A stretch of DNA of 64,000 nt, taken from contig CP068257.2 of assembly GCA_009914755.4 (NCBI GenBank), positions 768,001-832,000 on the forward strand, given 5' to 3'. This document shows, piece by piece, positions 31,298 through 64,000 of this stretch. Position numbers and translations under genes: made by a program. The number at the start of each line of letters is the position of its first letter. The first letter of the stretch is position 1. A model generated the notes under the pieces. It ran no database searches and was not told the DNA's origin. It saw nothing but the letters and a program-made list of their open reading frames with translations. The DNA is from the human T2T-CHM13v2.0 reference genome, Homo sapiens.

Positions 31298-31300
31298 GAA
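31249..31300. other. Compound breakpoint: a 68-bp monomer-deletion junction (cacttaggtgatgtaa|ctcttgtctaccc, ~31262) followed 36 bp later by the duplicon junction (ggggcattgtga|gaaatctctg, ~31297), which jumps back ~4 monomers.
   Basis: 31201-31320: ...cactgatcacttaggtgatgtaactcttgtctaccctctgtccaacggggcattgtgagaaatctctgcactgatcacccaggtgatgtaactgttg. The flanks are of different HOR variants (ctccccactg / cctttgcactg / gtgacacatctc upstream vs ctcgccactg / ccttttcactg / gtgacatatctc downstream). Confidence 0.65.
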
Positions 31301-39457: not shown

Positions 39458-39460
39458 ATA
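39405..39460. other. 68-bp monomer deletion junction (cacttaggtgatgtaa|ctcttgtctaccc), same type as at 31262.
   Basis: Compare with the intact arrangement at 37441-37520 (cacttaggtgatgtaacacttttataatcactgcctacagggaattttgacaaatctctgcactgatcacctaggtgatgtaactcttgtctaccc). ORF spacing 39023 to 40928 is 1905. Confidence 0.75.
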
Positions 39461-41379: not shown

Positions 41380-41400
41380 CCTAGGTGATTCAACTCTTGA
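41380..41400. other. Different 68-bp monomer deletion junction (cacctaggtgat|tcaactcttgactagg).
   Basis: 41381 cactgatcacctaggtgattcaactcttgactaggaactgcc, versus the intact 51091-51200 (cacctaggtgatgtaactcttgtctaccctctgtccaacggggcattgtgaaatatctcagcactgaacacccaggtgattcaactcttgactagg). ORF spacing 40928 to 42833 is 1905. Confidence 0.75.
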
Positions 41401-41564
41401 CTAGGAACTGCCTACAGAGGTTATTGTGAAATATCTCTGCACTGATAAACTAGGTGGTGTAAACCTTGTCCAAGCTCTGCCTACAGGGGCCTTTCCACAT
41501 ATCCCTGAACTGATGACAAAGGTGTTGTAACTCTTGCCTAGGCTTTGCCTACAGGGACATTGGA

Positions 41565-44500
41565 CATATATCTGCACTGATCACCCAGGTGATGCAACTC
41601 TTGCCTAGGCTTTGCCTACAGGGTACACTGTGACATATCTCTTCAATGATCACTCATGTGATGCATCTCTTGCCTAGGCTTTGCCTACAGGGGACATTGT
41701 GACATATCTCTGCACTGATACCCCAGGTGCTGTAACTTTAGTCTAGACTCTGGCTACACGTCATTGTGACATATCACTGCACTGATGAACCAGGTGATAT
41801 AACTCTTGTATAGGCTCTGCCTACAGGGGGCTTGTGACCTACCTCTGCACTGATCACCCAGGTGATATAACTCTTCTCTAGGATCTGCCTACAGGGTGCT
41901 TTGTGACATATCCCTGCACTGATCATCCAGGTGACCTAACTCTGGTCTAAGCTCTGCCTAAAGGGGCATTGTGACAGATCTCTGCACTGATCACTCAGGT
42001 GATGTAACTATTGTCTAGGCTCTGCTTAAAGGGGCCTTGTCACATATCCCTGCACTGATCACCCAGGTGATGTAACTCTTGTCTAGGCTCTGCTTCCTGG
42101 GCATATTGTGACATAGCTATGCACTGATCACCTTAGTGATGTAACACTTGTGTAGGCTCGGCCTACAGAGGAATCTTGACATATCTCTGCACTGTTAAAC
42201 GAGGTGATTTAACTCTTGTCTAGGCTGTGCCCACAGGGGGATTGAGACATATCTCTGCACTGATCCCGAGGTGATCCAACTCTTGCCTGGTCTCTGCCTA
42301 CTGGGGACATTGTGACATATCTCTGCACTGATCTCCCAGGTGCTGTAAATTTTGTCTAGGCTCTGGCTACACGGCATTGTGACTTATCACTGCACTGATC
42401 ACCCAGGCGATACAACTCTTGTCTAGGCTCTGCCTACAATGGTCTTGTGACATATCTCTGCACTGATCACCCAGGTGATATAACTCTTCTCTAGGATCTG
42501 ACCACGGGGTGATTTGTGAAATATCCCTGCAATGATCACCCAGGTGATATACCACTTGCCAAGGCTCTGCTTACAGGGGCATTGCAATGTATCTCTGCAC
42601 TGATCACCTAGGTCTTGTAGCTATTTTCTAGGATCTGCCTACAGGGTGCTTTGTGACGTGTCCCAGCAAGGATTACCCAGGTGATGTACCTCTCACCAAG
42701 GCTCTGCCTACAGGCACATTGCGATATATCTCTGCACTGATCACCTAGGTCACGTAACTTTTGTCTAGGCTCTACCTACGATGGTATTGTGACATATCTC
42801 TGCACTAATCATCCAAGTGATGTAACACTTGTCTAGGATGTGCCTAAATTAACTTTTTGACATAACCCTGTACTGATCATCCAGGTGATGGGGCTTTTGT
42901 CTAGGCTCTGCCTAAGGGGGCATTGTGACATATTTGTGCATTGATCACCCAGGTGGCGAACTCTTCTCTCGGATCTGCCTATGGGGGCATTGTGAGAAAT
43001 CTCTGCACTGATCACCCAGGTGATGTAACTGTTGTGTAACCTCTGCCTACAGGGGAATTGTGAGAGATCTCCCCACTGATTACCCAAGTGATGTAACCAT
43101 TGTCTAGGCTTTGCGTACAGGGGGCTTTGTGACATACCTTTGCACTGATCACCCAGGTGATGTAACACATCTAAGTTCGGCCTAAAGGAGCTTTGTGACA
43201 CATCTCTGCACTGATCACTTAGGTGATGTAACACTTTTATAATCACTGCCTACAGGGAATTTTGACAAATCTCTGCACTGATCACCTAGGTGATGTAACT
43301 CTTGTCTACCCTCTGTCCAACGGGGCATTGTGAAATATCTCAGCACTGAACACCCAGGTGATTCAACTCTTGACTAGGAACTGCCTACAGAGGTTATTGT
43401 GAAATATCTCTGCACTGACAAACTAGGTGGTGTAACCCTTGTCCAAGCTCTGCCTACAGGGGCGTTTCCACATATCCCTGAACTGATGACAAAGGTGATG
43501 TAACTCTTGCCTAGGCTTTGCCTACAGGGACATTGGACATATATCTGCACTGATCACCCAGGTGATGCAACTCTTGCCTAGGCTTTGCCTACAGGGTACT
43601 CTGTGACATATCTCTTCAATGACCACTCATGTGATGCATCTCTTGCCTAGGCTTTGCCAACAGGGGACATTGTGACATATCTCTGCACTGATCTCCCTGG
43701 TACTGTAACTTTAGTCTAGGCTCTGGCTACACGGCATTGTGACATATCACTGCACTGATCAACCAGGTTATATAACTCTTGTATAGGCTCTGCCTACAGG
43801 GGGCTTGTGACCTACCTCTGCTCTGATTACCCAGGTGATATAACTCTTCTCTAGGATCTGCCTACAGGGTGCTTTGTGACATATCCCTGCACTGATCACC
43901 CAGGTGACCTAACTCTTGTCTAAGCTCTGCCTAAAGGGGCATTGTGACAGATCTCTGCACTGATCACTCAGGTGATGTAACTATTGTCTAGGCTCTGCTT
44001 AAAGGGGCCTTGTCACATATCCCTGCACTGATCACCCAGGTGATGTAACTCTTGTCTAGGCTCTGCTTCCAGGGCATATTGTGACATAACTATGCACTGA
44101 TCACCTTAGTGATTTAACACTTGTGTGGGCTCGGCCTACAGAGGAATCTTGACATATCTCTGCACTGTTAAACGAGGTGATTTAACTCTTGTCTAGGCTG
44201 TGCCCACAGGGGGATTGAGACATATCTCTGCACTGATCCCGAGGTGATCCAACTCTTGCCTGGTCTCTGCCTACTGTGGACATTGTGACATATCTCTGCA
44301 CTGATCTCCCAGGTGCTGTAAATTTTGTCTAGGCTCTGGCTACACGGCATTGTGACTTATCACTGCACTGATCACCCAGGCGATACAACTCTTGTCTAGG
44401 CTCCGCCTACAATGGTCTTGTGACATATCTCTGCACTGATCACCCAGGTGATATAACTCTTCTCTAGGATCTGACCACGGGGTGCTTTGTGACATATCCC

Positions 44501-47500
44501 TGCAATGATCACCCAGGTGATATACCACTTGCCAAGGCTCTGCTTACAGGGGCATTGCAATGTATCTCTGCACTGATCACCTAGGTCTTGTAGCTATTTT
44601 CTAGGATCTGCCTACAGGGTGCTTTGTGACGGGTCCCAGCAAGGATTACCCAGGTGATGTACCTCTCATCAAGGCTCTGCCTACAGGCACATTGCGATAT
44701 ATCTCTGCACTGATCACCTAGGTCATGTAACTTTTGTCTAGGCTCTACCTACGATGGTATTGTGACATATCTCTGCACTAATCATCCAACTGATGTAACA
44801 CTTGTCTAGGATGTGCCTAAATTAACTTTTTGACATAACCCTGTACTGATCATCCAGGTGATGGGGCTTTTGTCTAGGCTCTGCCTAAGGGGGCATTGTG
44901 ACATATTTCTGCAATGATCACCCAGGTGGCGAACTCTTCTCTCGGATCTGCCTATGGGGGCATTGTGAGAAATCTCTGCACTGATCACCCAGGTGATGTA
45001 ACTGTTGTGTAACCTCTGCCTACAGGGGAATTGTGAGAGATCTCGCCACTGATTACCCAAGTGATGTAACCATTGTCCAGGCTTTGCGTACAGGGGGCTT
45101 TGTGACATACCTTTGCACTGATCACCCAGGTGATGTAACACATCTAAGTTCGGCCTAAAGGAACTTTGTGACACACCTCTGCACTGATCACTTAGGTGAT
45201 GTAACACTTTTATAATCACTGCCTACAGGGAATTTTGACAAATCTCTGCACTGATCACCTAGGTGATGTAACTCTTGTCTACCCTCTGTCCAACGGGGCA
45301 TTGTGAAATATCTCAGCACTGAACACCCAGGTGATTCAACTCTTGACTAGGAACTGCCTACAGAGGTTATTGTGAAATATCTCTGCACTGATAAACTAGG
45401 TGGTGTAAACCTTGTCCAAGCTCTGCCTACAGGGGCGTTTCCACATATCCCTGAACTGATGACAAAGGTGTTGTAACTCTTGCCTAGGCTTTGCCTACAG
45501 GGACATTGGACATATATCTGCACTGATCACCCAGGTGATGCAACTCTTGCCTAGGCTTTGCCTACAGGGTACACTGTGACATATCTCTTCAATGATCACT
45601 CATGTGATGCATCTCTTGCCTAGGCTTTGCCTACAGGGGACATTGTGACATATCTCTGCACTGATATCCCAGGTGCTGTAACTTTAGTCTAGACTCTGGC
45701 TACACGGCATTGTGACATATCACTGCACTGATGAACCAGGTGATATAACTCTTGTATAGGCTCTGCCTACAGGGGGCTTGTGACCTACCTCTGCACTGAT
45801 CACCCAGGTGATATAACTCTTCTCTAGGATCTGCCTACAGGGTGCTTTGTGACATATCCCTGCACTGATCATCCAGGTGACCTAACTCTGGTCTAAGCTC
45901 TGCCTAAAGGGGCATTGTGACAGATCTCTGCACTGATCACTCAGGTGATGTAACTATTGTCTAGGCTCTGCTTAAAGGGGCCTTGTCACATATCCCTGCA
46001 CTGATCACCCAGGTGATGTAACTCTTGTCTAGGCTCTGCTTCCTGGGCATATTGTGACATAGCTATGCACTGATCACCTTAGTGATGTAACACTTGTGTA
46101 GGCTCGGCCTACAGAGGAATCTTGACATATCTCTGCACTGTTAAACGAGGTGATTTAACTCTTGTCTAGGCTGTGCCCACAGGGGGATTGAGACATATCT
46201 CTGCACTGATCCCGAGGTGATCCAACTCTTACCTGGTCTCTGCCTACTGGGGACATTGTGACATATCTCTGCACTGATCTCCCAGGTGCTGTAAATTTTG
46301 TCTAGGCTCTGGCTACACGGCATTGTGACTTATCACTGCACTGATCACCCAGGCGATACAACTCTTGTCTAGGCTCTGCCTACAATGGTCTTGTGACATA
46401 TCTCTGCACTGATCACCCAGGTGATATAACTCTTCTCTAGGATCTGACCACGGGGTGCTTTGTGACATATCCCTGCAATGATCACCCAGGTGATATACCA
46501 CTTGCCAAGGCTCTGCTTACAGGGGCATTGCAATGTATCTCTGCACTTATCACCTAGGTCTTGTAGCTATTTTCTAGGATCTGCCTGCAGGGTGCTTTGT
46601 GACGGGTCCCAGCAAGGATTACCCAGGTGATGTACCTCTCATCAAGGCTCTGCCTACAGGCACATTGCAATATATCTCTGCACTGATCACCTAGGTCACG
46701 TAACTTTTGTCTAGGCTCTACCTACGATGGTATTGTGACATATCTCTGCACTAATCATCCAAGTGATGTAACACTTGTCTATGATGTGCCTAAATTAACT
46801 TTTTGACATAACCCTGTACTGATCATCCAAGTGATGGGGCTTTTGTCTAGGCTCTGCCTAAGGGGGCATTGTGACATATTTCTGCATTGATCACCCAGGT
46901 GGCGAACTCTTCTCTCGGATCTGCCTATGGGGGCATTGTGAGAAATCTCTGCACTGATCACCCAGGTGATGTAACTGTTGTGTAACCTCTGCCTACAGGG
47001 GAATTGTGAGAGATCTCCCTACTGATTACCCAAGTGATGTAACCATTGTCTAGGCTTTGCGTACAGGGGGCTTTGTGACATACCTTTGCACTGATCAACC
47101 AGGTGATGTAACACATCTAAGTTCGGCCTAAAGGAGCTTTGTGACACATCTCTGCACTGATCACTTAGGTGATGTAACACTTTTATAATCACTGCCTACA
47201 GGGAATTTTGACAAATCTCTGCACTGATCACCTAGGTGATGTAACTCTTGTCTACCCTCTGTCCAACGGGGCATTGTGAAATATCTCAGCACTGAACACC
47301 CAGGTGATTCAACTCTTGACTTGGAACTGCCTACAGAGGTTATTGTGAAATATCTCTGCACTGATAAACTAGGTGGTGTAACCCTTGTCTAAGCTCTGCC
47401 TACAGGGGCGTTTCCACATATCCCTGAACTGATGACAAAGGTGATGTAACTCTTGCCTAGGCTTTGCCTACAGGGGCATTGGACATATATCTGCACTGAT

Positions 47501-50500
47501 CACCCAGGTGATGCAACTCTTGCCTAGGCTTTGCCTACAGGGGACACTGTGACATATCTCTTCAATGATCACTCATGTGATGCATCTCTTGCCTAGGCTT
47601 TGACAACAGGGGACATTGTGACATATCTCTGCACTGATCTCCCTGGTACTGTAACTTTAGTCTAGGCTCTGGCTACACGGCATTGTGACATATCACTGCA
47701 CTGATCAACCAGGTGATATAACTCTGGTATAGGCTCTGCCTACAGGGGGCTTGTGACCTACCTCTGCACTGATCACCCAGGTGATATAACTCTTCTCTAG
47801 GATCTGCCTACAGGGTGCTTTGTGACATATCCCTGCACTGATCACCCAGGTGACCTAACTCTGGTCTAAGCTCTGCCTAAAGGGGCATTGTGACAGATCT
47901 CTGCACTGATCACTCAGGTGATGTAACTATTGTCTAGGCTCTGCTTAAAGGGGCCTTGTCACATATCCCTGCACTGATCACCCAGGTGATGTAACTCTTG
48001 TCTAGGCTCTGCTTCCAGGGCATATTGTGACATAACTATGCACTGATCACCTTAGTGATTTAACACTTGTGTAGGCTCGGCCTACAGAGGAATCTTGACA
48101 TATCTCTGAACTGTTAAACGAGGTGATTTAACTCTTGTCTAGGCTGTGCCCACAGGGGGATTGAGACATATCTCTGCACTGATCCCGAGGTGATCCAACT
48201 CTTGCCTGGTCTCTGCCTACTGGGGACATTGTGACATATCTCTGCACTGATCTCCCAGGTGCTGTAAATTTTGTCTAGGCTCTGGCTACACGGCATTGTG
48301 ACTTATCACTGCACTGATCACCCAGGCGATACAACTCTTGTCTAGGCTCTGCCTACAATGGTCTTGTGACATATCTCTGCACTGATCACCCAGGTGATAT
48401 AACTCTTCTCTAGGATCTGACCACGGGGTGCTTTGTGAAATATCCCTGCAATGATCACCCAGGTGATATACCACTTGCCAAGGCTCTGCTTACAGGGGCA
48501 TTGCAATGTATCTCTGCACTGATCACCTAGGTCTTGTAGCTATTTTCTAGGATCTGCCTACAGGGTGCTTTGTGACGTGTCCCAGCAAGGATTACCCAGG
48601 TGATGTACCTCTCACCAAGGCTCTGCCTACAGGCACATTGCGATATATCTCTGCACTGATCACCTAGGTCACGTAACTTTTGTCTAGGCTCTACCTACGA
48701 TGGTATTGTGACATATCTCTGCACTAATCATCCAAGTGATGTAACACTTGTCTAGGATGTGCCTAAATTAACTTTTTGACATAACCCTGTACTGATCATC
48801 CAGGTGATGGGGCTTTTGTCTAGGCTCTGCCTAAGGGGGCATTGTGACATATTTGTGCATTGATCACCCAGGTGGCGAACTCTTCTCTCGGATCTGCCTA
48901 TGGGGGCATTGTGAGAAATCTCTGCACTGATCACCCAGGTGATGTAACTGTTGTGTAACCTCTGCCTACAGGGGAATTGTGAGAGATCTCCCCACTGATT
49001 ACCCAAGTGATGTAACCATTGTCTAGGCTTTGCGTACAGGGGGCTTTGTGACATACCTTTGCACTGATCACCCAGGTGATGTAACACATCTAAGTTCGGC
49101 CTAAAGGAGCTTTGTGACACATCTCTGCACTGATCACTTAGGTGATGTAACTCTTGTCTACCCTCTGTCCAACGGGGCATTGTGAAATATCTCAGGACTG
49201 AACACCCAGGTGATTCAACTCTTGACTAGGAACTGCCTACAGAGGTTATTGTGAAATATCTCTGCACTGATAAACTAGGTGGTGTAACCCTTGTCCAAGC
49301 TCTGCCTACAGGGGCGTTTCCACATATCCCTGAACTGATGACAAAGTGATGTAACTCTTGCCTAGGCTTTGCCTACAGGGGCATTGGACATATATCTGCA
49401 CTGATCACCCAGGTGATGCAACTCTTGCCTAGGCTTTTCCTACAGGGGACACTGTGACATATCTCTTCAATGATCACTCATGTGATGCATCTCTTGCCTA
49501 GGCTTTGCCAACAGGGGACATTGTGACATATCTCTGCACTGATCTCCCTGGTACAGTAACTTTAGTCTAGGCTCTGGCTACACGGCATTGTGACATATCA
49601 CTGCACTGATCAACCAGGTGATATAACTCTTGTATAGGCTCTGCCTACAGGGGGCTTGTGACCTACCTCTGCACTGATCACCCAGGTGATATAACTCTTC
49701 TCTAGGATCTGCCTACAGGGTGCTTTGTGACATATCCCTGCACTGATCACCCAGGTGACCTAACTCTGGTCTAAGCTCTGCCTAAAGGGGCATTGTGACA
49801 GATCTCTGCACTGATCACTCAGGTGATGTAACCATTGTCTAGGATCTGCTTAAAGGGGCCTTGTCACATATCCCTGCACTGATCACCCAGGTGATGTAAC
49901 TCTTGTCTAGGCTCTGCTTCCAGGGCATATTGTGACATAACTATGCACTGATCACCTTAGTGATTTAACACTTGTGTAGGCTCGGCCTACAGAGGAATAT
50001 AGACATATCTCTGCACTGTTAAACGGGGTGATTTAACTCTTGTCTAGGCTGTGCCCACAGGGGGATTGAGACATATCTCTGCACTGATCCCGAGGTGATC
50101 CAACTCTTGCCTGGTCTCTGCCTACTGGGGACATTGTGACATATCTCTGCACTGATCTCCCAGGTGCTGTAAATTTTGTCTAGGCTCTGGCTACACGGCA
50201 TTGTGACTTATCACTGCACTGATCACCCAGGCGATACAACTCTTGTCTAGGCTCTGCCTACAATGGTCTTGTGACATATCTCTGCACTGATCACCCAGGT
50301 GATATAACTCTTCTCTAGGATCTGACCACGGGGTGCTTTGTGACATATCCCTGCAATGATCACCCAGGTGATATACCACTTGCCAAGGCTCTGCTTACAG
50401 GGGCATTGCAATGTATCTCTGCACTGATCACCTAGGTCTTGTAGCTATTTTCTAGGATCTGCCTACAGGGTGCTTTGTGACGGGTCCCAGCAAGGATTAC

Positions 50501-53500
50501 CCAGGTGATGTACCTCTCATCAAGGCTCTGCCTACAGGCACATTGCGATATCTCTCTGCACTGATCACCTAGGTCATGTAACTTTTGTCTAGGCTCTACC
50601 TACGATGGTATTGTGACATATCTCTGCACTAATCATCCAACTGATGTAACACTTGTCTAGGATGTGCCTAAATTAACTTTTTGACATAACCCTGTACTGA
50701 TCATCCAGGTGATGGGGCTTTTGTCTAGGCTCTGCCTAAGGGGGCATTGTGACATATTTCTGCAATGATCACCCAGGTGGCGAACTCTTCTCTCGGATCT
50801 GCCTATGGGGGCATTGTGAGAAATCTCTGCACTGATCACCCAGGTGATGTAACTGTTGTGTAACCTCTGCCTACAGGGGAATTGTGAGAGATCTCGCCAC
50901 TGATTACCCAAGTGATGTAACCATTGTCCAGGCTTTGCGTACAGGGGGCTTTGTGACATACCTTTGCACTGATCACCCAGGTGATGTAACACATCTAAGT
51001 TCGGCCTAAAGGAACTTTGTGACACACCTCTGCACTGATCACTTAGGTGATGTAACACTTTTATAATCACTGCCTACAGGGAATTTTGACAAATCTCTGC
51101 ACTGATCACCTAGGTGATGTAACTCTTGTCTACCCTCTGTCCAACGGGGCATTGTGAAATATCTCAGCACTGAACACCCAGGTGATTCAACTCTTGACTA
51201 GGAACTGCCTACAGAGGTTATTGTGAAATATCTCTGCACTGATAAACTAGGTGGTGTAAACCTTGTCCAAGCTCTGCCTACAGGGGCGTTTCCACATATC
51301 CCTGAACTGATGACAAAGGTGTTGTAACTCTTGCCTAGGCTTTGCCTACAGGGACATTGGACATATATCTGCACTGATCACCCAGGTGATGCAACTCTTG
51401 CCTAGGCTTTGCCTACAGGGTACACTGTGACATATCTCTTCAATGATCACTCATGTGATGCATCTCTTGCCTAGGCTTTGCCTACAGGGGACATTGTGAC
51501 ATATCTCTGCACTGATACCCCAGGTGCTGTAACTTTAGTCTAGACTCTGGCTACACGGCATTGTGACATATCACTGCACTGATGAACCAGGTGATATAAC
51601 TCTTGTATAGGCTCTGCCTACAGGGGGCTTGTGACCTACCTCTGCACTGATCACCCAGGTGATATAACTCTTCTCTAGGATCTGCCTACAGGGTGCTTTG
51701 TGACATATCCCTGCACTGATCATCCAGGTGACCTAACTCTGGTCTAAGCTCTGCCTAAAGGGGCATTGTGACAGATCTCTGCACTGATCACTCAGGTGAT
51801 GTAACTATTGTCTAGGCTCTGCTTAAAGGGGCCTTGTCACATATCCCTGCACTGATCACCCAGGTGATGTAACTCTTGTCTAGGCTCTGCTTCCTGGGCA
51901 TATTGTGACATAGCTATGCACTGATCACCTTAGTGATGTAACACTTGTGTAGGCTCGGCCTACAGAGGAATCTTGACATATCTCTGCACTGTTAAACGAG
52001 GTGATTTAACTCTTGTCTAGGCTGTGCCCACAGGGGGATTGAGACATATCTCTGCACTGATCCCGAGGTGATCCAACTCTTACCTGGTCTCTGCCTACTG
52101 GGGACATTGTGACATATCTCTGCACTGATCTCCCAGGTGCTGTAAATTTTGTCTAGGCTCTGGCTACACGGCATTGTGACTTATCACTGCACTGATCACC
52201 CAGGCGATACAACTCTTGTCTAGGCTCTGCCTACAATGGTCTTGTGACATATCTCTGCACTGATCACCCAGGTGATATAACTCTTCTCTAGGATCTGACC
52301 ACGGGGTGCTTTGTGACATATCCCTGCAATGATCACCCAGGTGATATACCACTTGCCAAGGCTCTGCTTACAGGGGCATTGCAATGTATCTCTGCACTGA
52401 TCACCTAGGTCTTGTAGCTATTTTCTAGGATCTGCCTGCAGGGTGCTTTGTGACGGGTCCCAGCAAGGATTACCCAGGTGATGTACCTCTCATCAAGGCT
52501 CTGCCTACAGGCACATTGCAATATATCTCTGCACTGATCACCTAGGTCACGTAACTTTTGTCTAGGCTCTACCTACGATGGTATTGTGACATATCTCTGC
52601 ACTAATCATCCAAGTGATGTAACACTTGTCTATGATGTGCCTAAATTAACTTTTTGACATAACCCTGTACTGATCATCCAGGTGATGGGGCTTTTGTCTA
52701 GGCTCTGCCTAAGGGGGCATTGTGACATATTTCTGCATTGATCACCCAGGTGGCGAACTCTTCTCTCGGATCTGCCTATGGGGGCATTGTGAGAAATCTC
52801 TGCACTGATCACCCAGGTGATGTAACTGTTGTGTAACCTCTGCCTACAGGGGAATTGTGAGAGATCTCCCTACTGATTACCCAAGTGATGTAACCATTGT
52901 CTAGGCTTTGCGTACAGGGGGCTTTGTGACATACCTTTGCACTGATCAACCAGGTGATGTAACACATCTAAGTTCGGCCTAAAGGAGCTTTGTGACACAT
53001 CTCTGCACTGATCACTTAGGTGATGTAACACTTTTATAATCACTGCCTACAGGGAATTTTGACAAATCTCTGCACTGATCACCTAGGTGATGTAACTCTT
53101 GTCTACCCTCTGTCCAACGGGGCATTGTGAAATATCTCAGCACTGAACACCCAGGTGATTCAACTCTTGACTAGGAACTGCCTACAGAGGTTATTGTGAA
53201 ATATCTCTGCACTGATAAACTAGGTGGTGTAACCCTTGTCTAAGCTCTGCCTACAGGGGCGTTTCCACATATCCCTGAACTGATGACAAAGGTGATGTAA
53301 CTCTTGCCTAGGCTTTGCCTACAGGGGCATTGGACATATATCTGCACTGATCACCCAGGTGATGCAACTCTTGCCTAGGCTTTGCCTACAGGGGACACTG
53401 TGACATATCTCTTCAATGATCACTCATGTGATGCATCTCTTGCCTAGGCTTTGACAACAGGGGACATTGTGACATATCTCTGCACTGATCTCCCTGGTAC

Positions 53501-56500
53501 TGTAACTTTAGTCTAGGCTCTGGCTACACGGCATTGTGACATATCACTGCACTGATCAACCAGGTGATATAACTCTGGTATAGGCTCTGCCTACAGGGGG
53601 CTTGTGACCTACCTCTGCACTGATCACCCAGGTGATATAACTCTTCTCTAGGATCTGCCTACAGGGTGCTTTGTGACATATCCCTGCACTGATCACCCAG
53701 GTGACCTAACTCTGGTCTAAGCTCTGCCTAAAGGGGCATTGTGACAGATCTCTGCACTGATCACTCAGGTGATGTAACTATTGTCTAGGCTCTGCTTAAA
53801 GGGGCCTTGTCACATATCCCTGCACTGATCACCCAGGTGATGTAACTCTTGTCTAGGCTCTGCTTCCAGGGCATATTGTGACATAACTATGCACTGATCA
53901 CCTTAGTGATTTAACACTTGTGTAGGCTCGGCCTACAGAGGAATCTTGACATATCTCTGAACTGTTAAACGAGGTGATTTAACTCTTGTCTAGGCTGTGC
54001 CCACAGGGGGATTGAGACATATCTCTGCACTGATCCCGAGGTGATCCAACTCTTGCCTGGTCTCTGCCTACTGGGGACATTGTGACATATCTCTGCACTG
54101 ATCTCCCAGGTGCTGTAAATTTTGTCTAGGCTCTGGCTACACGGCATTGTGACTTATCACTGCACTGATCACCCAGGCGATACAACTCTTGTCTAGGCTC
54201 TGCCTACAATGGTCTTGTGACATATCTCTGCACTGATCACCCAGGTGATATAACTCTTCTCTAGGATCTGACCACGGGGTGCTTTGTGAAATATCCCTGC
54301 AATGATCACCCAGGTGATATACCACTTGCCAAGGCTCTGCTTACAGGGGCATTGCAATGTATCTCTGCACTGATCACCTAGGTCTTGTAGCTATTTTCTA
54401 GGATCTGCCTACAGGGTGCTTTGTGACGTGTCCCAGCAAGGATTACCCAGGTGATGTACCTCTCACCAAGGCTCTGCCTACAGGCACATTGCGATATATC
54501 TCTGCACTGATCACCTAGGTCACGTAACTTTTGTCTAGGCTCTACCTACGATGGTATTGTGACATATCTCTGCACTAATCATCCAAGTGATGTAACACTT
54601 GTCTAGGATGTGCCTAAATTAACTTTTTGACATAACCCTGTACTGATCATCCAGGTGATGGGGCTTTTGTCTAGGCTCTGCCTAAGGGGGCATTGTGACA
54701 TATTTGTGCATTGATCACCCAGGTGGCGAACTCTTCTCTCGGATCTGCCTATGGGGGCATTGTGAGAAATCTCTGCACTGATCACCCAGGTGATGTAACT
54801 GTTGTGTAACCTCTGCCTACAGGGGAATTGTGAGAGATCTCCCCACTGATTACCCAAGTGATGTAACCATTGTCTAGGCTTTGCGTACAGGGGGCTTTGT
54901 GACATACCTTTGCACTGATCACCCAGGTGATGTAACACATCTAAGTTCGGCCTAAAGGAGCTTTGTGACACATCTCTGCACTGATCACTTAGGTGATGTA
55001 ACACTTTTATAATCACTGCCTACAGGGAATTTTGACAAATCTCTGCACTGATCACCTAGGTGATGTAACTCTTGTCTACCCTCTGTCCAACGGGGCATTG
55101 TGAAATATCTCAGCACTGAACACCCAGGTGATTCAACTCTTGACTAGGAACTGCCTACAGAGGTTATTGTGAAATATCTCTGCACTGACAAACTAGGTGG
55201 TGTAACCCTTGTCCAAGCTCTGCCTACAGGGGCGTTTCCACATATCCCTGAACTGATGACAAAGGTGATGTAACTCTTGCCTAGGCTTTGCCTACAGGGA
55301 CATTGGACATATATCTGCACTGATCACCCAGGTGATGCAACTCTTGCCTAGGCTTTGCCTACAGGGTACTCTGTGACATATCTCTTCAATGACCACTCAT
55401 GTGATGCATCTCTTGCCTAGGCTTTGCCAACAGGGGACATTGTGACATATCTCTGCACTGATCTCCCTGGTACTGTAACTTTAGTCTAGGCTCTGGCTAC
55501 ACGGCATTGTGACATATCACTGCACTGATCAACCAGGTTATATAACTCTTGTATAGGCTCTGCCTACAGGGGGCTTGTGACCTACCTCTGCTCTGATCAC
55601 CCAGGTGATATAACTCTTCTCTAGGATCTGCCTACAGGGTGCTTTGTGACATATCCCTGCACTGATCACCCAGGTGACCTAACTCTGGTCTAAGCTCTGC
55701 CTAAAGGGGCATTGTGACAGATCTCTGCACTGATCACTCAGGTGATGTAACTATTGTCTAGGCTCTGCTTAAAGGGGCCTTGTCACATATCCCTGCACTG
55801 ATCACCCAGGTGATGTAACTCTTGTCTAGGCTCTGCTTCCAGGGCATATTGTGACATAACTATGCACTGATCACCTTAGTGATTTAACACTTGTGTAGGC
55901 TCGGCCTACAGAGGAATCTTGACATATCTCTGCACTGTTAAACGAGGTGATTTAACTCTTGTCTAGGCTGTGCCCACAGGGGGATTGAGACATATCTCTG
56001 CACTGATCCCGAGGTGATCCAACTCTTGCCTGGTCTCTGCCTACTGTGGACATTGTGACATATCTCTGCACTGATCTCCCAGGTGCTGTAAATTTTGTCT
56101 AGGCTCTGGCTACACGGCATTGTGACTTATCACTGCACTGATCACCCAGGCGATACAACTCTTGTCTAGGCTCCGCCTACAATGGTCTTGTGACATATCT
56201 CTGCACTGATCACCCAGGTGATATAACTCTTCTCTAGGATCTGACCACGGGGTGCTTTGTGACATATCCCTGCAATGATCACCCAGGTGATATACCACTT
56301 GCCAAGGCTCTGCTTACAGGGGCATTGCAATGTATCTCTGCACTGATCACCTAGGTCTTGTAGCTATTTTCTAGGATCTGCCTACAGGGTGCTTTGTGAC
56401 GGGTCCCAGCAAGGATTACCCAGGTGATGTACCTCTCATCAAGGCTCTGCCTACAGGCACATTGCGATATATCTCTGCACTGATCACCTAGGTCATGTAA

Positions 56501-59500
56501 CTTTTGTCTAGGCTCTACCTACGATGGTATTGTGACATATCTCTGCACTAATCATCCAACTGATGTAACACTTGTCTAGGATGTGCCTAAATTAACTTTT
56601 TGACATAACCCTGTACTGATCATCCAGGTGATGGGGCTTTTGTCTAGGCTCTGCCTAAGGGGGCATTGTGACATATTTCTGCAATGATCACCCAGGTGGC
56701 GAACTCTTCTCTCGGATCTGCCTATGGGGGCATTGTGAGAAATCTCTGCACTGATCACCCAGGTGATGTAACTGTTGTGTAACCTCTGCCTACAGGGGAA
56801 TTGTGAGAGATCTCGCCACTGATTACCCAAGTGATGTAACCATTGTCCAGGCTTTGCGTACAGGGGGCTTTGTGACATACCTTTGCACTGATCACCCAGG
56901 TGATGTAACACATCTAAGTTCGGCCTAAAGGAACTTTGTGACACACCTCTGCACTGATCACTTAGGTGATGTAACACTTTTATAATCACTGCCTACAGGG
57001 AATTTTGACAAATCTCTGCACTGATCACCTAGGTGATGTAACTCTTGTCTACCCTCTGTCCAACGGGGCATTGTGAAATATCTCAGCACTGAACACCCAG
57101 GTGATTCAACTCTTGACTAGGAACTGCCTACAGAGGTTATTGTGAAATATCTCTGCACTGATAAACTAGGTGGTGTAAACCTTGTCCAAGCTCTGCCTAC
57201 AGGGGCGTTTCCACATATCCCTGAACTGATGACAAAGGTGTTGTAACTCTTGCCTAGGCTTTGCCTACAGGGACATTGGACATATATCTGCACTGATCAC
57301 CCAGGTGATGCAACTCTTGCCTAGGCTTTGCCTACAGGGTACACTGTGACATATCTCTTCAATGATCACTCATGTGATGCATCTCTTGCCTAGGCTTTGC
57401 CTACAGGGGACATTGTGACATATCTCTGCACTGATACCCCAGGTGCTGTAACTTTAGTCTAGACTCTGGCTACACGGCATTGTGACATATCACTGCACTG
57501 ATGAACCAGGTGATATAACTCTTGTATAGGCTCTGCCTACAGGGGGCTTGTGACCTACCTCTGCACTGATCACCCAGGTGATATAACTCTTCTCTAGGAT
57601 CTGCCTACAGGGTGCTTTGTGACATATCCCTGCACTGATCATCCAGGTGACCTAACTCTGGTCTAAGCTCTGCCTAAAGGGGCATTGTGACAGATCTCTG
57701 CACTGATCACTCAGGTGATGTAACTATTGTCTAGGCTCTGCTTAAAGGGGCCTTGTCACATATCCCTGCACTGATCACCCAGGTGATGTAACTCTTGTCT
57801 AGGCTCTGCTTCCTGGACATATTGTGACATAGCTATGCACTGATCACCTTAGTGATGTAACACTTGTGTAGGCTCGGCCTACAGAGGAATCTTGACATAT
57901 CTCTGCACTGTTAAACGAGGTGATTTAACTCTTGTCTAGGCTGTGCCCACAGGGGGATTGAGACATATCTCTGCACTGATCCCGAGGTGATCCAACTCTT
58001 GCCTGGTCTCTGCCTACTGGGGACATTGTGACATATCTCTGCACTGATCTCCCAGGTGCTGTAAATTTTGTCTAGGCTCTGGCTACACGGCATTGTGACT
58101 TATCACTGCACTGATCACCCAGGCGATACAACTCTTGTCTAGGCTCTGCCTACAATGGTCTTGTGACATATCTCTGCACTGATCACCCAGGTGATATAAC
58201 TCTTCTCTAGGATCTGACCACGGGGTGCTTTGTGACATATCCCTGCAATGATCACCCAGGTGATATACCACTTGCCAAGGCTCTGCTTACAGGGGCATTG
58301 CAATGTATCTCTGCACTGATCACCTAGGTCTTGTAGCTATTTTCTAGGATCTGCCTGCAGGGTGCTTTGTGACGGGTCCCAGCAAGGATTACCCAGGTGA
58401 TGTACCTCTCATCAAGGCTCTGCCTACAGGCACATTGCGATATATCTCTGCACTGATAACCTAGGTCACGTAACTTTTGTCTAGGCTCTACCTACGATGG
58501 TATTGTGACATATCTCTGCACTAATCATCCAAGTGATGTAACACTTGTCTATGATGTGCCTAAATTAACTTTTTGACATAACCCTGTACTGATCATCCAG
58601 GTGATGGGGCTTTTGTCTAGGCTCTGCCTAAGGGGGCATTGTGACATATTTCTGCATTGATCACCCAGGTGGCGAACTCTTCTCTCGGATCTGCCTATGG
58701 GGGCATTGTGAGAAATCTCTGCACTGATCACCCAGGTGATGTAACTGTTGTGTAACCTCTGCCTACAGGGGAATTGTGAGAGATCTCCCCACTGATTACC
58801 CAAGTGATGTAACCATTGTCTAGGCTTTGCGTACAGGGGGCTTTGTGACATACCTTTGCACTGATCAACCAGGTGATGTAACACATCTAAGTTCGGCCTA
58901 AAGGAGCTTTGTGACACATCTCTGCACTGATCACTTAGGTGATGTAACACTTTTATAAGCACTGCCTACAGGGAATTTTGACAAATCTCTGCACTGATCA
59001 CCTAGGTGATGTAACTCTTGTCTACCCTCTGTCCAACGGGGCATTGTGAAATATCTCAGCACTGAACACCCAGGTGATTCAACTCTTGACTAGGAACTGC
59101 CTACAGAGGTTATTGTGAAATATCTCTGCACTGATAAACTAGGTGGTGTAACCCTTGTCCAAGCTCTGCCTACAGGGGCGTTTCCACATATCCCTGAACT
59201 GATGACAAAGGTGATGTAACTCTTGCCTAGGCTTTGCCTACAGGGGCATTGGACATATATCTGTACTGATCACCCAGGTGATGCAACTCTTGCCTAGGCT
59301 TTGCCTACAGGGGACACTGTGACATATCTCTTCAATGATCACTCATGTGATGCATCTCTTGCCTAGGCTTTGACAACAGGGGACATTGTGACATATCTCT
59401 GCACTGATCTCCCTGGTACTGTAACTTTAGTCTAGGCTCTGGCTACACGGCATTGTGACATATCACTGCACTGATCAACCAGGTGATATAACTCTTGTAT

Positions 59501-62500
59501 AGGCTCTGCCTACAGGGGGCTTGTGACCTACCTCTGCACTGATCACCCAGGTGATATAACTCTTCTCTAGGATCTGCCTACAGGGTGCTTTGTGACATAT
59601 CCCTGCACTGATCACCCAGGTGACTAACTCTGGTCTAAGCTCTGCCTAAAGGGGCATTGTGACAGATCTCTGCACTGATCACTCAGGTGATGTAACTATT
59701 GTCTAGGCTCTGCTTAAAGGGGCCTTGTCACATATCCCTGCACTGATCACCCAGGTGATGTAACTCTTGTCTAGGCTCTGCTTCCAGGGCATATTGTGAC
59801 ATAACTATGCACTGATCACCTTAGTGATTTAACACTTGTGTAGGCTCGGCCTACAGAGGAATCTTGACATATCTCTGAACTGTTAAACGAGGTGATTTAA
59901 CTCTTGTCTAGGCTGTGCCCACAGGGGGATTGAGACATATCTCTGCACTGATCCCGAGGTGATCCAACTCTTGCCTGGTCTCTGCCTACTGGGGACATTG
60001 TGACATATCTCTGCACTGATCTCCCAGGTGCTGTAAATTTTGTCTAGGCTCTGGCTACACGGCATTGTGACTTATCACTGCACTGATCACCCAGGCGATA
60101 CAACTCTTGTCTAGGCTCTGCCTACAATGGTCTTGTGACATATCTCTGCACTGATCACCCAGGTGATATAACTCTTCTCTAGGATCTGACCACGGGGTGC
60201 TTTGTGAAATATCCCTGCAATGATCACCCAGGTGATATACCACTTGCCAAGGCTCTGCTTACAGGGGCATTGCAATGTATCTCTGCACTGATCACCTAGG
60301 TCTTGTAGCTATTTTCTAGGATCTGCCTACAGGGTGCTTTGTGACGTGTCCCAGCAAAGATTACCCAGGTGATGTACCTCTCACCAAGGCTCTGCCTACA
60401 GGCACATTGCGATATATCTCTGCACTGATCACCTAGGTCATGTAACTTTTGTCTAGGCTCTACCTACGATGGTATTGTGACATATCTCTGCACTAATCAT
60501 CCAAGTGATGTAACACTTGTCTAGGATGTGCCTAAATTAACTTTTTGACATAACCCTGTACTGATCATCCAGGTGATGGGGCTTTTGTCTAGGCTCTGCC
60601 TAAGGGGGCATTGTGACATATTTGTGCATTGATCACCCAGGTGGCGAACTCTTCTCTCGGATCTGCCTATGGGGGCATTGTGAGAAATCTCTGCACTGAT
60701 AACCCAGGTGATGTAACTGTTGTGTAACCTCTGCCTACAGGGGAATTGTGAGAGATCTCCCCACTGATTACCCAAGTGATGTAACCATTGTCCAGGCTTT
60801 GCGTACAGGGGGCTTTGTGACATACCTTTGCACTGATCACCCAGGTGATGTAACACATCTAAGTTCGGCCTAAAGGAGCTTTGTGACACATCTCTGCACT
60901 GATCACTTAGGTGATGTAACACTTTTATAATCACTGCCTACAGGGAATTTTGACAAATCTCTGCACTGATCACCTAGGTGATGTAACTCTTGTCTACCCT
61001 CTGTCCAACGGGGCATTGTGAAATATCTCAGCACTGAACACCCAGGTGATTCAACTCTTGACTAGGAACTGCCTACAGAGGTTATTGTGAAATATCTCTG
61101 CACTGATAAACTAGGTGGTGTAACCCTTGTCCAAGCTCTGCCTACAGGGGCGTTTCCACATATCCCTGAACTGATGACAAAGGTGATGTAACTCTTGCCT
61201 AGGCTTTGCCTACAGGGACATTGGACATATATCTGCACTGATCACCCAGGAGATGCAACTCTTGCCTAGGCTTTGCCTACAGGGTACTCTGTGACATATC
61301 TCTTCAATGACCACTCATGTGATGCATCTCTTGCCTAGGCTTTGCCAACAGGGGACATTGTGACATATCTCTGCACTGATCTCCCTGGTACTGTAACTTT
61401 AGTCTAGGCTCTGGCTACACGGCATTGTGACATATCACTGCACTGATCAACCAGGTTATATAACTCTTGTATAGGCTCTGCCTACAGGGGGCTTGTGACC
61501 TACCTCTGCACTGATCACCCAGGTGATATAACTCTTCTCTAGGATCTGCCTACAGGGTGCTTTGTGACATATCCCTGCACTGATCACCCAGGTGACCTAA
61601 CTCTGGTCTAAGCTCTGCCTAAAGGGGCATTGTGACAGATCTCTGCACTGATCACTCAGGTGATGTAACTATTGTCTAGGCTCTGCTTAAAGGGGCCTTG
61701 TCACATATCCCTGCACTGATCACCCAGGTGATGTAACTCTTGTCTAGGCTCTGCTTCCAGGGCATATTGTGACATAACTATGCACTGATCACCTTAGTGA
61801 TTTAACACTTGTGTAGGCTCGGCCTACAGAGGAATCTTGACATATCTCTGAACTGTTAAACGAGGTGATTTAACTCTTGTCTAGGCTGTGCCCACAGGGG
61901 GATTGAGACATATCTCTGCACTGATCCCGAGGTGATCCAACTCTTGCCTGGTCTCTGCCTACTGGGGACATTGTGACATATCTCTGCACTGATCTCCCAG
62001 GTGCTGTAAATTTTGTCTAGGCTCTGGCTACACGGCATTGTGACTTATCACTGCACTGATCACCCAGGCGATACAACTATTGTCTAGGCTCTGCCTACAA
62101 TGGTCTTGTGACATATCTCTGCACTGATCACCCAGGTGATATAACTCTTCTCTAGGATCTGACCACGGGGTGCTTTGTGAAATATCCCTGCAATGAGCAC
62201 CCAGGTGATATACCACTTGCCAAGGCTCTGCTTACAGGGGCATTGCAATGTATCTCTGCACTGATCACCTAGGTCTTGTAGCTATTTTCTAGGATCTGCC
62301 TACAGGGGGCTTTGTGACGTGTCCCAGCAAGGATTACCCAGGTGATGTACCTCTCATCAAGGCTCTGCCTACAGGCACATTGCGATATATCTCTGCACTG
62401 ATCACCTAGGTCACGTAACTTTTGTCTAGGCTCTACCTACGATGGTATTGTGACATATCTCTGCACTAATCATCCAAGTGATGTAACACTTGTCTAGGAT

Positions 62501-63198
62501 GTGCCTAAATTAACTTTTTGACATAACCCTGTACTGATCATCCAGGTGATGGGGCTTTTGTCTAGGCTCTGCCTAAGGGGGCATTGTGACATATTTGTGC
62601 ATTGATCACCCAGGTGGCGAACTCTTCTCTCGGATCTGCCTATGGGGGCATTGTGAGAAATCTCTGCACTGATCACCCAGGTGATGTAACTGTTGTGTAA
62701 CCTCTGCCTACAGGGGAATTGTGAGAGATCTCCCCACTGATTACCCAAGTGATGTAACCATTGTCTAGGCTTTGCGTACAGGGGGCTTTGTGACATACCT
62801 TTGCACTGATCACCCAGGTGATGTAACACATCTAAGTTCGGCCTAAAGGAGCTTTGTGACACATCTCTGCACTGATCACTTAGGTGATGTAACACTTTTA
62901 TAATCACTGCCTACAGGGAATTTTGACAAATCTCTGCACTGATCACCTAGGTGATGTAACTCTTGTCTACCCTCTGTCCAACGGGGCATTGTGAAATATC
63001 TCAGCACTGAACACCCAGGTGATTCAACTCTTGACTAGGAACTGCCTACAGAGGTTATTGTGAAATATCTCTGCACTGATAAACTAGGTGGTGTAACCCT
63101 TGTCCAAGCTCTGCCTACAGGGGCGTTTCCACATATCCCTGAACTGATGACAAAGGTGATGTAACTCTTGCCTAGGCTTTGCCTACAGGGGCATTGGA
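41565..63198. repeat. Trimeric super-HOR (~5851-5919 bp, three HOR variants B-A-C), ~3.7 copies, mosaic.
   Basis: Variant B (QCTNMS; gtgaaatatccctgcaatg) has 137-aa-ORF anchors at 42833, 48752, 54603, 60521 (spacing 5919, 5851, 5918) plus 62494. Variant A (CRGVSQ, KPGQW, GDHCRNMS) is at 44806, 50657, 56576. Variant C/D (tgtctatgatgtgcc) is at 46779, 52630, 58549. Additional long-range matches: offset 11770 (44168/55938 share NVHSRQ) and offset 9729 (40290/50019 share NHPV; 39691/49421 share cttttcctacag; 39821/49551 share tacagtaac). Confidence 0.55.
49135..49190. other. Third occurrence of the cacttaggtgatgtaa|ctcttgtctaccc monomer-deletion junction.
   Basis: 49131-49200 is identical in arrangement to 39411-39480, including the downstream ctcaggactgaacacc variant. 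ORF at 48752 is the 142-aa form; spacing 48752 to 50657 is 1905. Confidence 0.75.
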
Positions 63199-64000
63199 CA
63201 TATATCTGTACTGATCACCCAGGTGATGCAACTCTTGCCTAGGCTTTGCCTACAGGGGACACTGTGACATATCTCTTCAATGATCACTCATGTGATGCAT
63301 CTCTTGCCTAGGCTTTGACAACAGGGGACATTGTGACATATCTCTGCACTGATCTCCCTGGTACTGTAACTTTAGTCTAGGCTCTGGCTACACGGCATTG
63401 TGACATATCACTGCACTGATCAACCAGGTGATATAACTCTTGTATAGGCTCTGCCTACAGGGGGCTTGTGACCTACCTCTGCACTGATCACCCAGGTGAT
63501 ATAACTCTTCTCTAGGATCTGCCTACAGGGTGCTTTGTGACATATCCCTGCACTGATCACCCAGGTGACTAACTCTGGTCTAAGCTCTGCCTAAAGGGGC
63601 ATTGTGACAGATCTCTGCACTGATCACTCAGGTGATGTAACTATTGTCTAGGCTCTGCTTAAAGGGGCCTTGTCACATATCCCTGCACTGATCACCCAGG
63701 TGATGTAACTCTTGTCTAGGCTCTGCTTCCAGGGCATATTGTGACATAACTATGCACTGATCACCTTAGTGATTTAACACTTGTGTAGGCTCGGCCTACA
63801 GAGGAATCTTGACATATCTCTGAACTGTTAAACGAGGTGATTTAACTCTTGTCTAGGCTGTGCCCACAGGGGGATTGAGACATATCTCTGCACTGATCCC
63901 GAGGTGATCCAACTCTTGCCTGGTCTCTGCCTACTGGGGACATTGTGACATATCTCTGCACTGATCTCCCAGGTGCTGTAAATTTTGTCTAGGCTCTGGC

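What the first reader, a model, noticed from the sequence alone, without database searches (positions are those of the whole stretch)
41565..63198. Trimeric (~5.9-kb) super-HOR with mosaic variant exchange in the distal part of subfamily 2
Three HOR variants (B, A, C/D) cycle with 5851-5919-bp spacing for more than three rounds, with extra correspondences at 9729 and 11770 bp. Individual copies swap diagnostic blocks: the 60521 copy is B-type but carries the A-type KPGQW site, and the 58549 copy carries a subfamily-1-like ttataagcactgcc site. Several layers of periodicity in the same kilobases indicate ongoing gene conversion or unequal exchange.
Basis: seen in the sequence. Interest (0 to 1): 0.5.

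Follow-up and report, generated by a model that had tools for sequence, protein, structure and literature searches.

The report
Three-variant cycle in beta-satellite repeats
This is an ordinary stretch of 68-bp beta-satellite DNA whose 2-kb higher-order repeat units come in three variants that cycle P-Q-R three times and include hybrid units, the expected result of unequal exchange and gene conversion in a tandem array.

Summary
The whole 64-kb window is one 68-bp satellite, human-type beta satellite. It is organised as a 29-monomer, 1973-bp higher-order repeat (HOR).

- **Three HOR variants.** From 43538 to 61225 the variants, which I call P, Q and R, cycle exactly three times. Copies of the same type differ at 3-18 sites; copies of different types differ at 23-39 sites.
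- **Offsets.** Perfect-match tracts of 1.3-2.2 kb confirm them.
- **A larger layer.** Region 39153-49138 is a 99.77% colinear copy of 48882-60907, minus exactly one HOR (1973 bp) and one monomer (68 bp).
- **Mosaic copies.**
  - 41565 is a Q-head/R-tail hybrid.
  - 47484 is R with the deletion-bearing tail of 37755.
  - 61226 is R with a roughly 200-bp P2 patch.
  - P1 and P2 differ at 15 sites in the head and at none in the tail.

The mechanism is unequal exchange plus conversion-like patching, the textbook way satellite arrays evolve. It matches the "superHOR", HOR-haplotype and nested-duplication patterns published for alpha satellite. Interest is low.

The parts
37755..39659 (+). Context HOR copy of type U, a 28-mer of 1905 bp. 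Its tail from column 1400 (window 39153) carries a 68-bp deletion that fuses monomers 25 and 26.
39660..41564 (+). HOR copy P1, a 28-mer of 1905 bp with its own separate 68-bp deletion fusing monomers 26 and 27. It differs from copy 49389 by 1 substitution.
41565..43537 (+). Hybrid HOR copy. Columns 1-577 are the Q head (1 mismatch to 51362). Columns 956-1973 are the R body (1 mismatch to 53335). The breakpoint lies in columns 578-955, window 42142-42519.
43538..45510 (+). HOR copy P2. It differs from 55308 at 3 sites. Its tail (columns 1165-1973) is identical to the tail of P1 copy 49389.
45511..47483 (+). HOR copy Q. It differs from 51362 at 4 sites and from 57281 at 11.
47484..49388 (+). 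Mosaic HOR copy, a 28-mer. Columns 1-1399 have 0 mismatches to R copy 53335, a match that continues to column 1655. From column 1400 to the end it has 0 mismatches to the tail of 37755, including the 68-bp deletion. The junction lies in 48883-49138.
49389..51361 (+). HOR copy P1, full length.
51362..53334 (+). HOR copy Q.
53335..55307 (+). HOR copy R.
55308..57280 (+). HOR copy P2.
57281..59253 (+). HOR copy Q', which differs from 51362 at 7 sites. It carries the single T>G change (column 1679) inside the 14-mer that starts at 58953, giving the subfamily-1-like TTATAAGCACTGCC.
59254..61225 (+). HOR copy R', which differs from 53335 at 7 sites. It carries two alleles otherwise seen in P copies, at columns 1189 and 1541. 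Column 1189 is a CpG site where T is the ancestral state. Non-P alleles at columns 1253, 1377 and 1508 lie between the two.
61226..63198 (+). R-like HOR copy that breaks the cycle. P2 alleles occupy columns 63-232 (61288-61457), and the R marker at column 120 is missing. R alleles run from column 626 to 1372. There are 4 private changes.
63199..64000 (+). Partial HOR copy cut off by the window end. It is R'-like and shares 11T, 120A, the deletion at column 371 and 626A with copy 59254.
39153..49138 (+). Unit A, a colinear 99.77% copy of unit B. It lacks one HOR (1973 bp, gap placed at 42190/42191), one monomer (68 bp, at 41382/41383) and 1 bp.
48882..60907 (+). Unit B, a block of six HORs (about 11.8 kb) in the order tail-P1-Q-R-P2-Q'-R'.

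Best explanation
The region is part of a beta-satellite array: a 68-bp monomer in a 29-monomer HOR of 1973 bp. It has no coding or RNA role that I could detect.

The pattern records recent homologous exchange between misaligned repeats. Local HOR variants arose by point mutation. A block of three neighbouring variants (P-Q-R, 5.9 kb) was amplified as a unit. A block of six HORs (about 11.8 kb) was then duplicated in tandem, giving units A and B.

Unit A then lost exactly one HOR through an exchange between a Q copy and an R copy. That exchange left the Q/R hybrid at 41565. One monomer was also lost in 39660.

Further patch-like transfers followed, by gene conversion or by template switching during repair:
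- The P tails were homogenised across two different heads.
- The Q-R pairs of neighbouring trimers were homogenised.
- The deletion-bearing tail plus P1 plus the Q head (3.1 kb) was copied 9.7 kb away.
- About 200 bp of P2 sequence was placed in copy 61226.

Shown directly: the types, the cycle, the colinearity with integral-unit gaps, the hybrid copies and the non-random site pattern.

Inferred: the order of events, and whether each event was a crossover, a conversion or a replication-based switch.
For: - Satellite and HOR structure: (29 monomers, mean 76.5% identity between monomers).
- Three types and the lag-3 and lag-6 minima.
- Perfect tracts at four offsets.
- The copying-model painting gives clean two-segment hybrids for 41565 (1+1 mismatches), 47484 (0+0) and 49389, and three segments for 61226.
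- Units A and B align end to end with only gaps of 68, 1973 and 1 bp and 23 mismatches in 9985 bp. A deletion of exactly one repeat unit, with a hybrid copy at the junction, is what unequal exchange produces.
- Non-tree-like sites: 154 incompatible pairs, PHI-like p < 5e-5; Rm >= 5; the pair 41565/53335 gives p = 0.0004, below the Bonferroni threshold of 0.0007.
- All 15 P1/P2 differences lie in columns 50-1164. All 9 P-common alleles lie in columns 1189-1934.
- Type-specific derived alleles are absent from the 10 external contigs of the same HOR family that I aligned (L002, L003, L005, L006, L008, L009, L011 and L012 were not aligned), so the variants appear local and young.
- The same kind of event recurs elsewhere in the window: an 8124-bp duplicate with 4 mismatches, and three independent one-monomer deletions.
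Against: - Only one pairwise tract survives multiple-test correction. The P2 patch in 61226 gives p = 0.005 uncorrected.
- Some incompatibilities may be recurrent mutation. Column 1189 is a CpG site.
- The A/B duplication alone does not explain why 45511 and 47484 are closer to 51362 and 53335 (4 and 3 differences) than to 57281 and 59254 (11 and 8 differences). Extra events must be assumed.
- Crossover, conversion and template switching cannot be told apart from one haplotype.
- Assembly accuracy in this repeat cannot be checked here.
- The cycle has only three exact rounds.
Confidence: 0.82

Rival explanations
1. Unequal crossing-over between sister chromatids or homologues is the only process. 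Every layer and every hybrid copy results from successive out-of-register crossovers, with no gene conversion.
For: The Q/R hybrid comes with loss of exactly 1973 bp, and units A and B are colinear. One-monomer deletions are in-register fusions of adjacent monomers. The 8.1-kb tandem duplicate is nearby.
Against: Several tracts are internal patches flanked on both sides by a different relationship, with no change in copy number. One is the P2 alleles at columns 63-232 inside R-like copy 61226. Another is the shared P tails on two distinct heads. A third is 44702-49138, which matches 50553-54989 inside the A/B frame. Each would need two precisely placed crossovers.
Confidence: 0.2
2. A single complex replication-based event, break-induced replication with several template switches among HOR copies, built unit A in one step from pieces of unit B.
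For: Unit A can be written as three pieces of unit B: 48882-52079, 53961-57436 and about 50553-54989. Their divergences cannot be told apart: 2/3038, 4/3476 and 4/4437 mismatches.
Against: Counts this small cannot separate one event from several events close in time. Nothing in the sequence marks a template switch, such as microhomology junctions or insertions. Sequential exchange explains the same data.
Confidence: 0.12
3. Assembly artefact: near-identical repeats were mis-joined or collapsed, creating false hybrid copies and register shifts.
For: Hybrid copies with 0-1 mismatches to their two parents are also what a mis-join would produce. No read data are available here.
Against: Adjacent HOR types differ at 23-39 sites per 2 kb, which is enough for long accurate reads to anchor. 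The structure is internally consistent over 22 kb. Independent private mutations sit on each copy.
Confidence: 0.06
4. The three-variant cycle is kept by selection for a functional unit of about 5.9 kb, such as a chromatin or protein-binding periodicity.
For: None found. The only observation is that the order P-Q-R repeats.
Against: The cycle lasts only three rounds and is broken on both sides by hybrids. Other parts of the same array use different multi-HOR periods: 7.8-9.8 kb in 1-19.7 kb and 8.16 kb in 23-39 kb. The type-specific alleles are absent from the related contigs that were aligned.
Confidence: 0.02

Closest known systems
Alpha-satellite superHORs and HOR-haplotypes (T2T-HG002 annotation, PMC13477032; T2T-CHM13 HOR-haps and nested duplications, bioRxiv 10.1101/2021.07.12.452052)
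   Same: Slightly different versions of one HOR recur in a fixed order. The published working rule is n-mers of HORs, with n = 2-9, repeated at least 3 times in a row and containing at least one differing HOR-haplotype. P-Q-R x3 meets that rule. Recent nested local duplications inside arrays are also described.
   Different: Those annotations were made on 171-bp alpha satellite in active centromere arrays. This array has a 68-bp beta-satellite monomer and a 29-mer HOR. I found no published superHOR map of beta satellite.
Human beta satellite (Sau3A family) HOR arrays, such as pB3 on chromosome 9 and pB4 on the acrocentric chromosomes
   Same: A 68-bp monomer, a GATC (Sau3A) site in the consensus, and multimeric HORs in long arrays. 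New beta-satellite HORs were reported from T2T-CHM13 using NTRprism.
   Different: I could not compare this 1973-bp HOR with the pB3 or pB4 sequences, or place it on a chromosome. The original paper is not held and no human reference can be searched with these tools.
Classical unequal-crossover and concerted-evolution model of tandem repeats (Smith 1976; Dover's molecular drive). Cited from my own knowledge, not read here.
   Same: The model predicts higher-order periodicities, hybrid repeats at exchange points, gain or loss of whole repeat units, and local homogenisation. All of these are seen here.
   Different: There is no conflict with the model. This locus adds evidence for short patch transfers that the pure crossover model does not need.

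Membership tests
Beta satellite (Sau3A family) | Tandem array of diverged monomers of about 68 bp | tested here: met
   TRF finds period 68 with 940.7 copies across 1-63998. nhmmer finds 29 monomers per HOR, and the 29 aligned monomers average 76.5% pairwise identity.
Beta satellite (Sau3A family) | Monomers organised in a multimeric higher-order repeat that is itself tandemly repeated | tested here: met
   There are 33 in-register copies of a 1973-bp unit, 94.4-100% identical to the reference copy for all but the diverged first copy (88.5%), whereas monomers average 76.5% identity to each other.
Beta satellite (Sau3A family) | Sequence similarity to the reference beta-satellite consensus | tested here: inconclusive
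   No repeat library is available. Indirect support comes from three points. The consensus contains GATC. A published PCR primer for the human 4q35 region distal to D4Z4 matches 61 sites with 1-2 mismatches, against 0 expected. The consensus also matches the BSat consensus as I remember it.
Beta satellite (Sau3A family) | Primate (human) genomic origin | tested here: inconclusive
   The same HOR family, at 82-98.5% identity, occurs as short stray contigs in 7 bacterial or archaeal assemblies and in 9 metagenome contigs. One of them, L015, joins it to an (ATGGA)n array like human satellite 2/3. No human reference could be searched.
superHOR (working rule of PMC13477032) | [quoted passage not shown] | tested here: met
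   P-Q-R occurs three times in a row, 43538-61225.
superHOR (working rule of PMC13477032) | At least one HOR in the n-mer belongs to a different HOR-haplotype | tested here: met
   Copies of different types differ at 23-39 substitutions per copy. Copies of the same type differ at 3-18.
Unequal-exchange product | A hybrid repeat with one breakpoint, a gain or loss of a whole number of units, and colinear flanks on both sides | tested here: met
   41565 is Q(1-577)/R(956-1973). Units A and B align with a gap of exactly 1973 bp at that point and 99.77% identity overall.
Gene-conversion tract | A short donor-type patch flanked on both sides by recipient-type sequence, with no change in copy number | tested here: inconclusive
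61226 carries P2 alleles at columns 63-232 inside an R-like copy, but p = 0.005 is uncorrected and fails Bonferroni.

The most novel reading that the evidence does not exclude
Unit A (39153-49138) may have been assembled in a single replication-based event with several template switches between HOR copies. Three pieces of 3-4.4 kb, in three different registers, show divergences that cannot be told apart (0.07-0.12%). If so, beta-satellite arrays would grow by multi-switch repair synthesis and not by successive unequal crossovers. The transversion-rich variant spectrum (27 transitions against 42 transversions) would then reflect copying from non-allelic monomers and not point mutation.
Probability: 0.12. 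Interest if true: 0.4.

Novelty: new member of a known kind. Interest (0 to 1): 0.15.

Why it matters
It matters little beyond description. It is a clean, base-resolved example showing that beta-satellite arrays have the same multi-layer organisation as alpha satellite: monomer, HOR, a trimer of HORs, and a block of about 11.8 kb. It also shows hybrid units that pin exchange breakpoints to a few hundred bases. Loci like this could serve as markers for measuring exchange and conversion rates in satellite arrays across human haplotypes or pedigrees. The mechanism and the pattern are already textbook.

Tried and rejected
- **Ungapped autocorrelation.** It gives peaks, but their heights mostly reflect 68-bp indels, not similarity. 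I replaced it with HOR-by-HOR alignment.
Both are single-nucleotide sites, so I did not accept them as evidence of exchange.
  - Column 1189 in 59254 is a CpG site carrying the ancestral T.
  - Column 1541 could be a tract shorter than 117 bp or a parallel mutation.
  - Column 1679 G equals the subfamily-1 base, with no linked site.
- **GENECONV-like pairwise test.** Only 41565/53335 survives correction.
- **Q-specific 34-mer in metagenome contigs.** No match.
- **Waye & Willard 1989.** Not held, so the HOR could not be compared with pB3 or pB4.
- **Literature search for long consensus strings.** Nothing, apart from one primer.
- **L014 flank.** It has densely packed bacterial-style ORFs, so the contig is probably chimeric and says nothing about location.
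- **Rfam on related loci.** No hits.
- **One simple duplication history.** Rejected, because the lag-3 and lag-6 relationships conflict.
- **Functional or selected periodicity.** Rejected for lack of any support.
Full report
**What the sequence is.**
- Tandem Repeats Finder reports one array of period 68 bp over 1-63998 (940.7 copies, 75% matches). Base composition is flat across the window, at 47% G+C.
- The consensus unit contains a GATC site. As far as I remember it, the unit matches the human beta-satellite (Sau3A family) monomer.
- Two results give indirect support for that identification.
  - A published primer for the human 4q35 region distal to D4Z4 (bioRxiv 10.1101/157040) matches 61 sites with 1-2 mismatches, against none expected.
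  - The same higher-order repeat occurs as stray short contigs in 7 bacterial or archaeal assemblies and in 9 metagenome contigs, at 82-98.5% identity. One of these, L015, joins it to an (ATGGA)n array like human satellite 2/3.
- Beta satellite is described as a 68-bp repeat, organised in HORs, on the acrocentric short arms and several pericentromeres.
- I could not place the window on a chromosome.

**Higher-order repeat.**
- A 1973-bp unit recurs in register 33 times. It holds 29 monomers that average 76.5% identity to each other.
- Copies before 19735 form one subfamily. Copies after it form a second subfamily about 5% away.
- Five copies are 28-mers (1905-1906 bp). They result from three independent one-monomer deletions:
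  - monomer 29 in copies 8031 and 15857;
  - a fusion of monomers 25 and 26 in 37755 and 47484;
  - a fusion of monomers 26 and 27 in 39660.

**Checking the observation.**
- Aligning the copies from 35782 onward gives three types:
  - P: 39660 and 49389 (P1); 43538 and 55308 (P2).
  - Q: 45511, 51362 and 57281.
  - R: 47484, 53335 and 59254.
- The order from 39660 is P1, Q/R hybrid, P2, Q, R, P1, Q, R, P2, Q', R', then an R-like copy, then a partial R'-like copy.
- In the core 43538-61225, mean differences per copy pair are 9.0 at lag 3 and 7.3 at lag 6. At lags 1, 2, 4, 5 and 7 they are 28-34.
- Permuting copy order gives p = 0.008.
Perfect-match tracts of 1.3-2.2 kb exist at 5851, 5919, 9729 and 11770 bp.

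- 'KPGQW' is a minus-strand translation that marks one SNP at HOR column 1541. It is found in the four P copies and in R-type copy 59254.
- 'ttataagcactgcc' is one T>G change at column 1679 in copy 57281. It matches all ten subfamily-1 copies.
- The alleles flanking column 1541 in 59254 are not P-type, so any tract there is shorter than 117 bp.
- The other P-like allele in 59254, at column 1189, is a CpG site carrying the ancestral base.
- These sites fit either a very short conversion or a parallel mutation. They do not show block exchange.

**Real mosaics.** A copying-model painting of each copy against all the others gives clean composites.
- 41565 matches 51362 (Q) over columns 1-718 with 1 mismatch. 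It matches 53335 (R) over columns 719-1973 with 1 mismatch.
- 47484 matches 53335 (R) over columns 1-1399 with 0 mismatches. It matches the tail of 37755 with 0 mismatches, including the 68-bp deletion.
- 61226 has a P2 head (columns 1-243) on an R-like body.
- P1 and P2 differ at 15 sites, all in columns 50-1164. All nine P-common alleles lie in columns 1189-1934. Positions this skewed are very unlikely without exchange, about 3e-4 each way by simple proportion.
- Of 1275 pairs of informative sites, 154 fail the four-gamete test. Incompatibility is clustered by distance, with PHI-like p < 5e-5.
- The Hudson-Kaplan Rm is at least 5. The pair 41565/53335 passes a Bonferroni-corrected GENECONV-like test (p = 0.0004). 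The P2 patch in 61226 is only nominal (p = 0.005).

**A larger layer.**
- Region A (39153-49138) aligns end to end with region B (48882-60907). The only gaps are 68 bp, 1973 bp and 1 bp, and there are 23 mismatches in 9985 bp, which is 99.77% identity.
- So a block of six HORs, about 11.8 kb, is present twice in tandem.
- The first copy has lost exactly one HOR at the point where the Q/R hybrid sits. That is the signature of unequal exchange.
- This frame does not explain everything.
  - 45511 and 47484 are closer to 51362 and 53335 (4 and 3 differences) than to their frame partners 57281 and 59254 (11 and 8 differences).
  - Within B, the P tail plus Q head is identical between the two trimers for 1345 bp, although the P heads differ.
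- Region A can be written as three pieces of B, with 2/3038, 4/3476 and 4/4437 mismatches. So either several exchanges happened close in time, or one multi-switch event occurred.

**Age and locality.**
- None of the derived alleles specific to P1, P2, the P tail, Q or R appears in the 10 external contigs of this HOR family that I aligned. Those contigs carry the ancestral states.
- A Q-specific 34-mer is absent from the metagenome collection.
- Several Q-head alleles that look 'subfamily-1-like' are simply ancestral states.
- The trimer is therefore a young, local structure.

**Context in the window.** Multi-HOR periodicity is not special to this region.
- Subfamily 1 shows four-, five- and six-copy relationships.
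- 23127-31250 is duplicated at 31286-39409 with 4 mismatches in 8124 bp.

**Mechanism.**
- The best-supported reading is ordinary concerted evolution of a tandem array. Multi-HOR blocks are amplified by out-of-register homologous exchange. Whole HORs and whole monomers are lost by the same process. Patch-like transfers are then added by gene conversion or by template switching during repair.
- One haplotype cannot separate crossover, conversion and replication-based switching.
- Assembly error cannot be excluded here. It is unlikely, because adjacent types differ at 23-39 sites per 2 kb.

**Comparison with what is known.**
- The pattern meets the working rule for 'superHOR' used for alpha satellite in T2T-HG002: n-mers of HORs, n = 2-9, at least 3 in a row, with differing HOR-haplotypes.
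- It resembles the HOR-haplotype layers and nested recent duplications described for T2T-CHM13 centromeres.
- New beta-satellite HORs were already reported there.
- I found no published superHOR map of beta satellite. This is therefore a new instance of a known kind, not a new kind.

**Verdict.** Interest is low (0.15).

Noticed in passing
window 23127-31250 and 31286-39409: A near-perfect tandem duplicate of 8124 bp with 4 mismatches, at offset 8159. Its junction leaves copy 29596 at 2243 bp, 270 bp longer than a full unit. It is more recent than, or as recent as, the events in the finding.
   Followed up: partly
window 39660-63198 (variant sites among 12 HOR copies): Transversions outnumber transitions, 42 to 27, and only 3 are CpG transitions. 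This is unusual for mammalian point mutation. Variant bases are weakly enriched for the base that other monomers carry at the same monomer position (0.142 against about 0.10 expected, p 0.01-0.03). That may hint at conversion between non-allelic monomers.
   Followed up: partly
window 8031-9935, 15857-17762, 37755-39659, 39660-41564, 47484-49388: Three independent one-monomer (68-bp) deletions produce the 28-mer HOR variants. Monomer 29 is lost in subfamily 1. A fusion of monomers 25 and 26 is shared by 37755 and 47484. A fusion of monomers 26 and 27 occurs only in 39660.
   Followed up: yes
window 19735 (boundary), 1-19734 versus 19735-64000: There is a sharp switch between two HOR subfamilies about 5% apart. 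The first subfamily-2 copies (19735, 21708, 23680) are 2-4% from the later ones, so identity rises toward the distal end. I did not check whether 19735 is a hybrid of the two subfamilies.
   Followed up: no
window 1-19734: Subfamily 1 has its own multi-HOR layers. 2110 matches 6057 and 13883 (0.1-0.4% apart). 139 matches 11909. 9936 matches 17763. 8031 matches 15857. The corresponding offsets are about 3.9, 7.8 and 9.8 kb.
   Followed up: partly
window 41717, 45663, 51514, 57433 (HOR columns 153-156): All Q-head copies have lost the Sau3A site of that monomer: GATC has become GATA. A Sau3A digest would therefore show the trimer period.
   Followed up: no
L001-L007 (bacterial and archaeal genome assemblies) and L008-L016 (metagenome contigs): The same beta-satellite HOR family appears as short contigs in assemblies labelled Actinomadura, Acidovorax, Streptosporangium, Campylobacter concisus, Psychrobacter, and in a Desulfobacteraceae MAG and a Woesearchaeota MAG. 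This is almost certainly contamination with host or human DNA.
   Followed up: partly
L015 1-1851 and 1863-4209; L014 1-6672: In L015, beta satellite abuts a 2.3-kb (ATGGA)n array like human satellite 2/3. In L014, 1.4 kb of beta satellite is joined to 6.7 kb of densely packed bacterial-style ORFs, so the contig is probably chimeric.
   Followed up: partly
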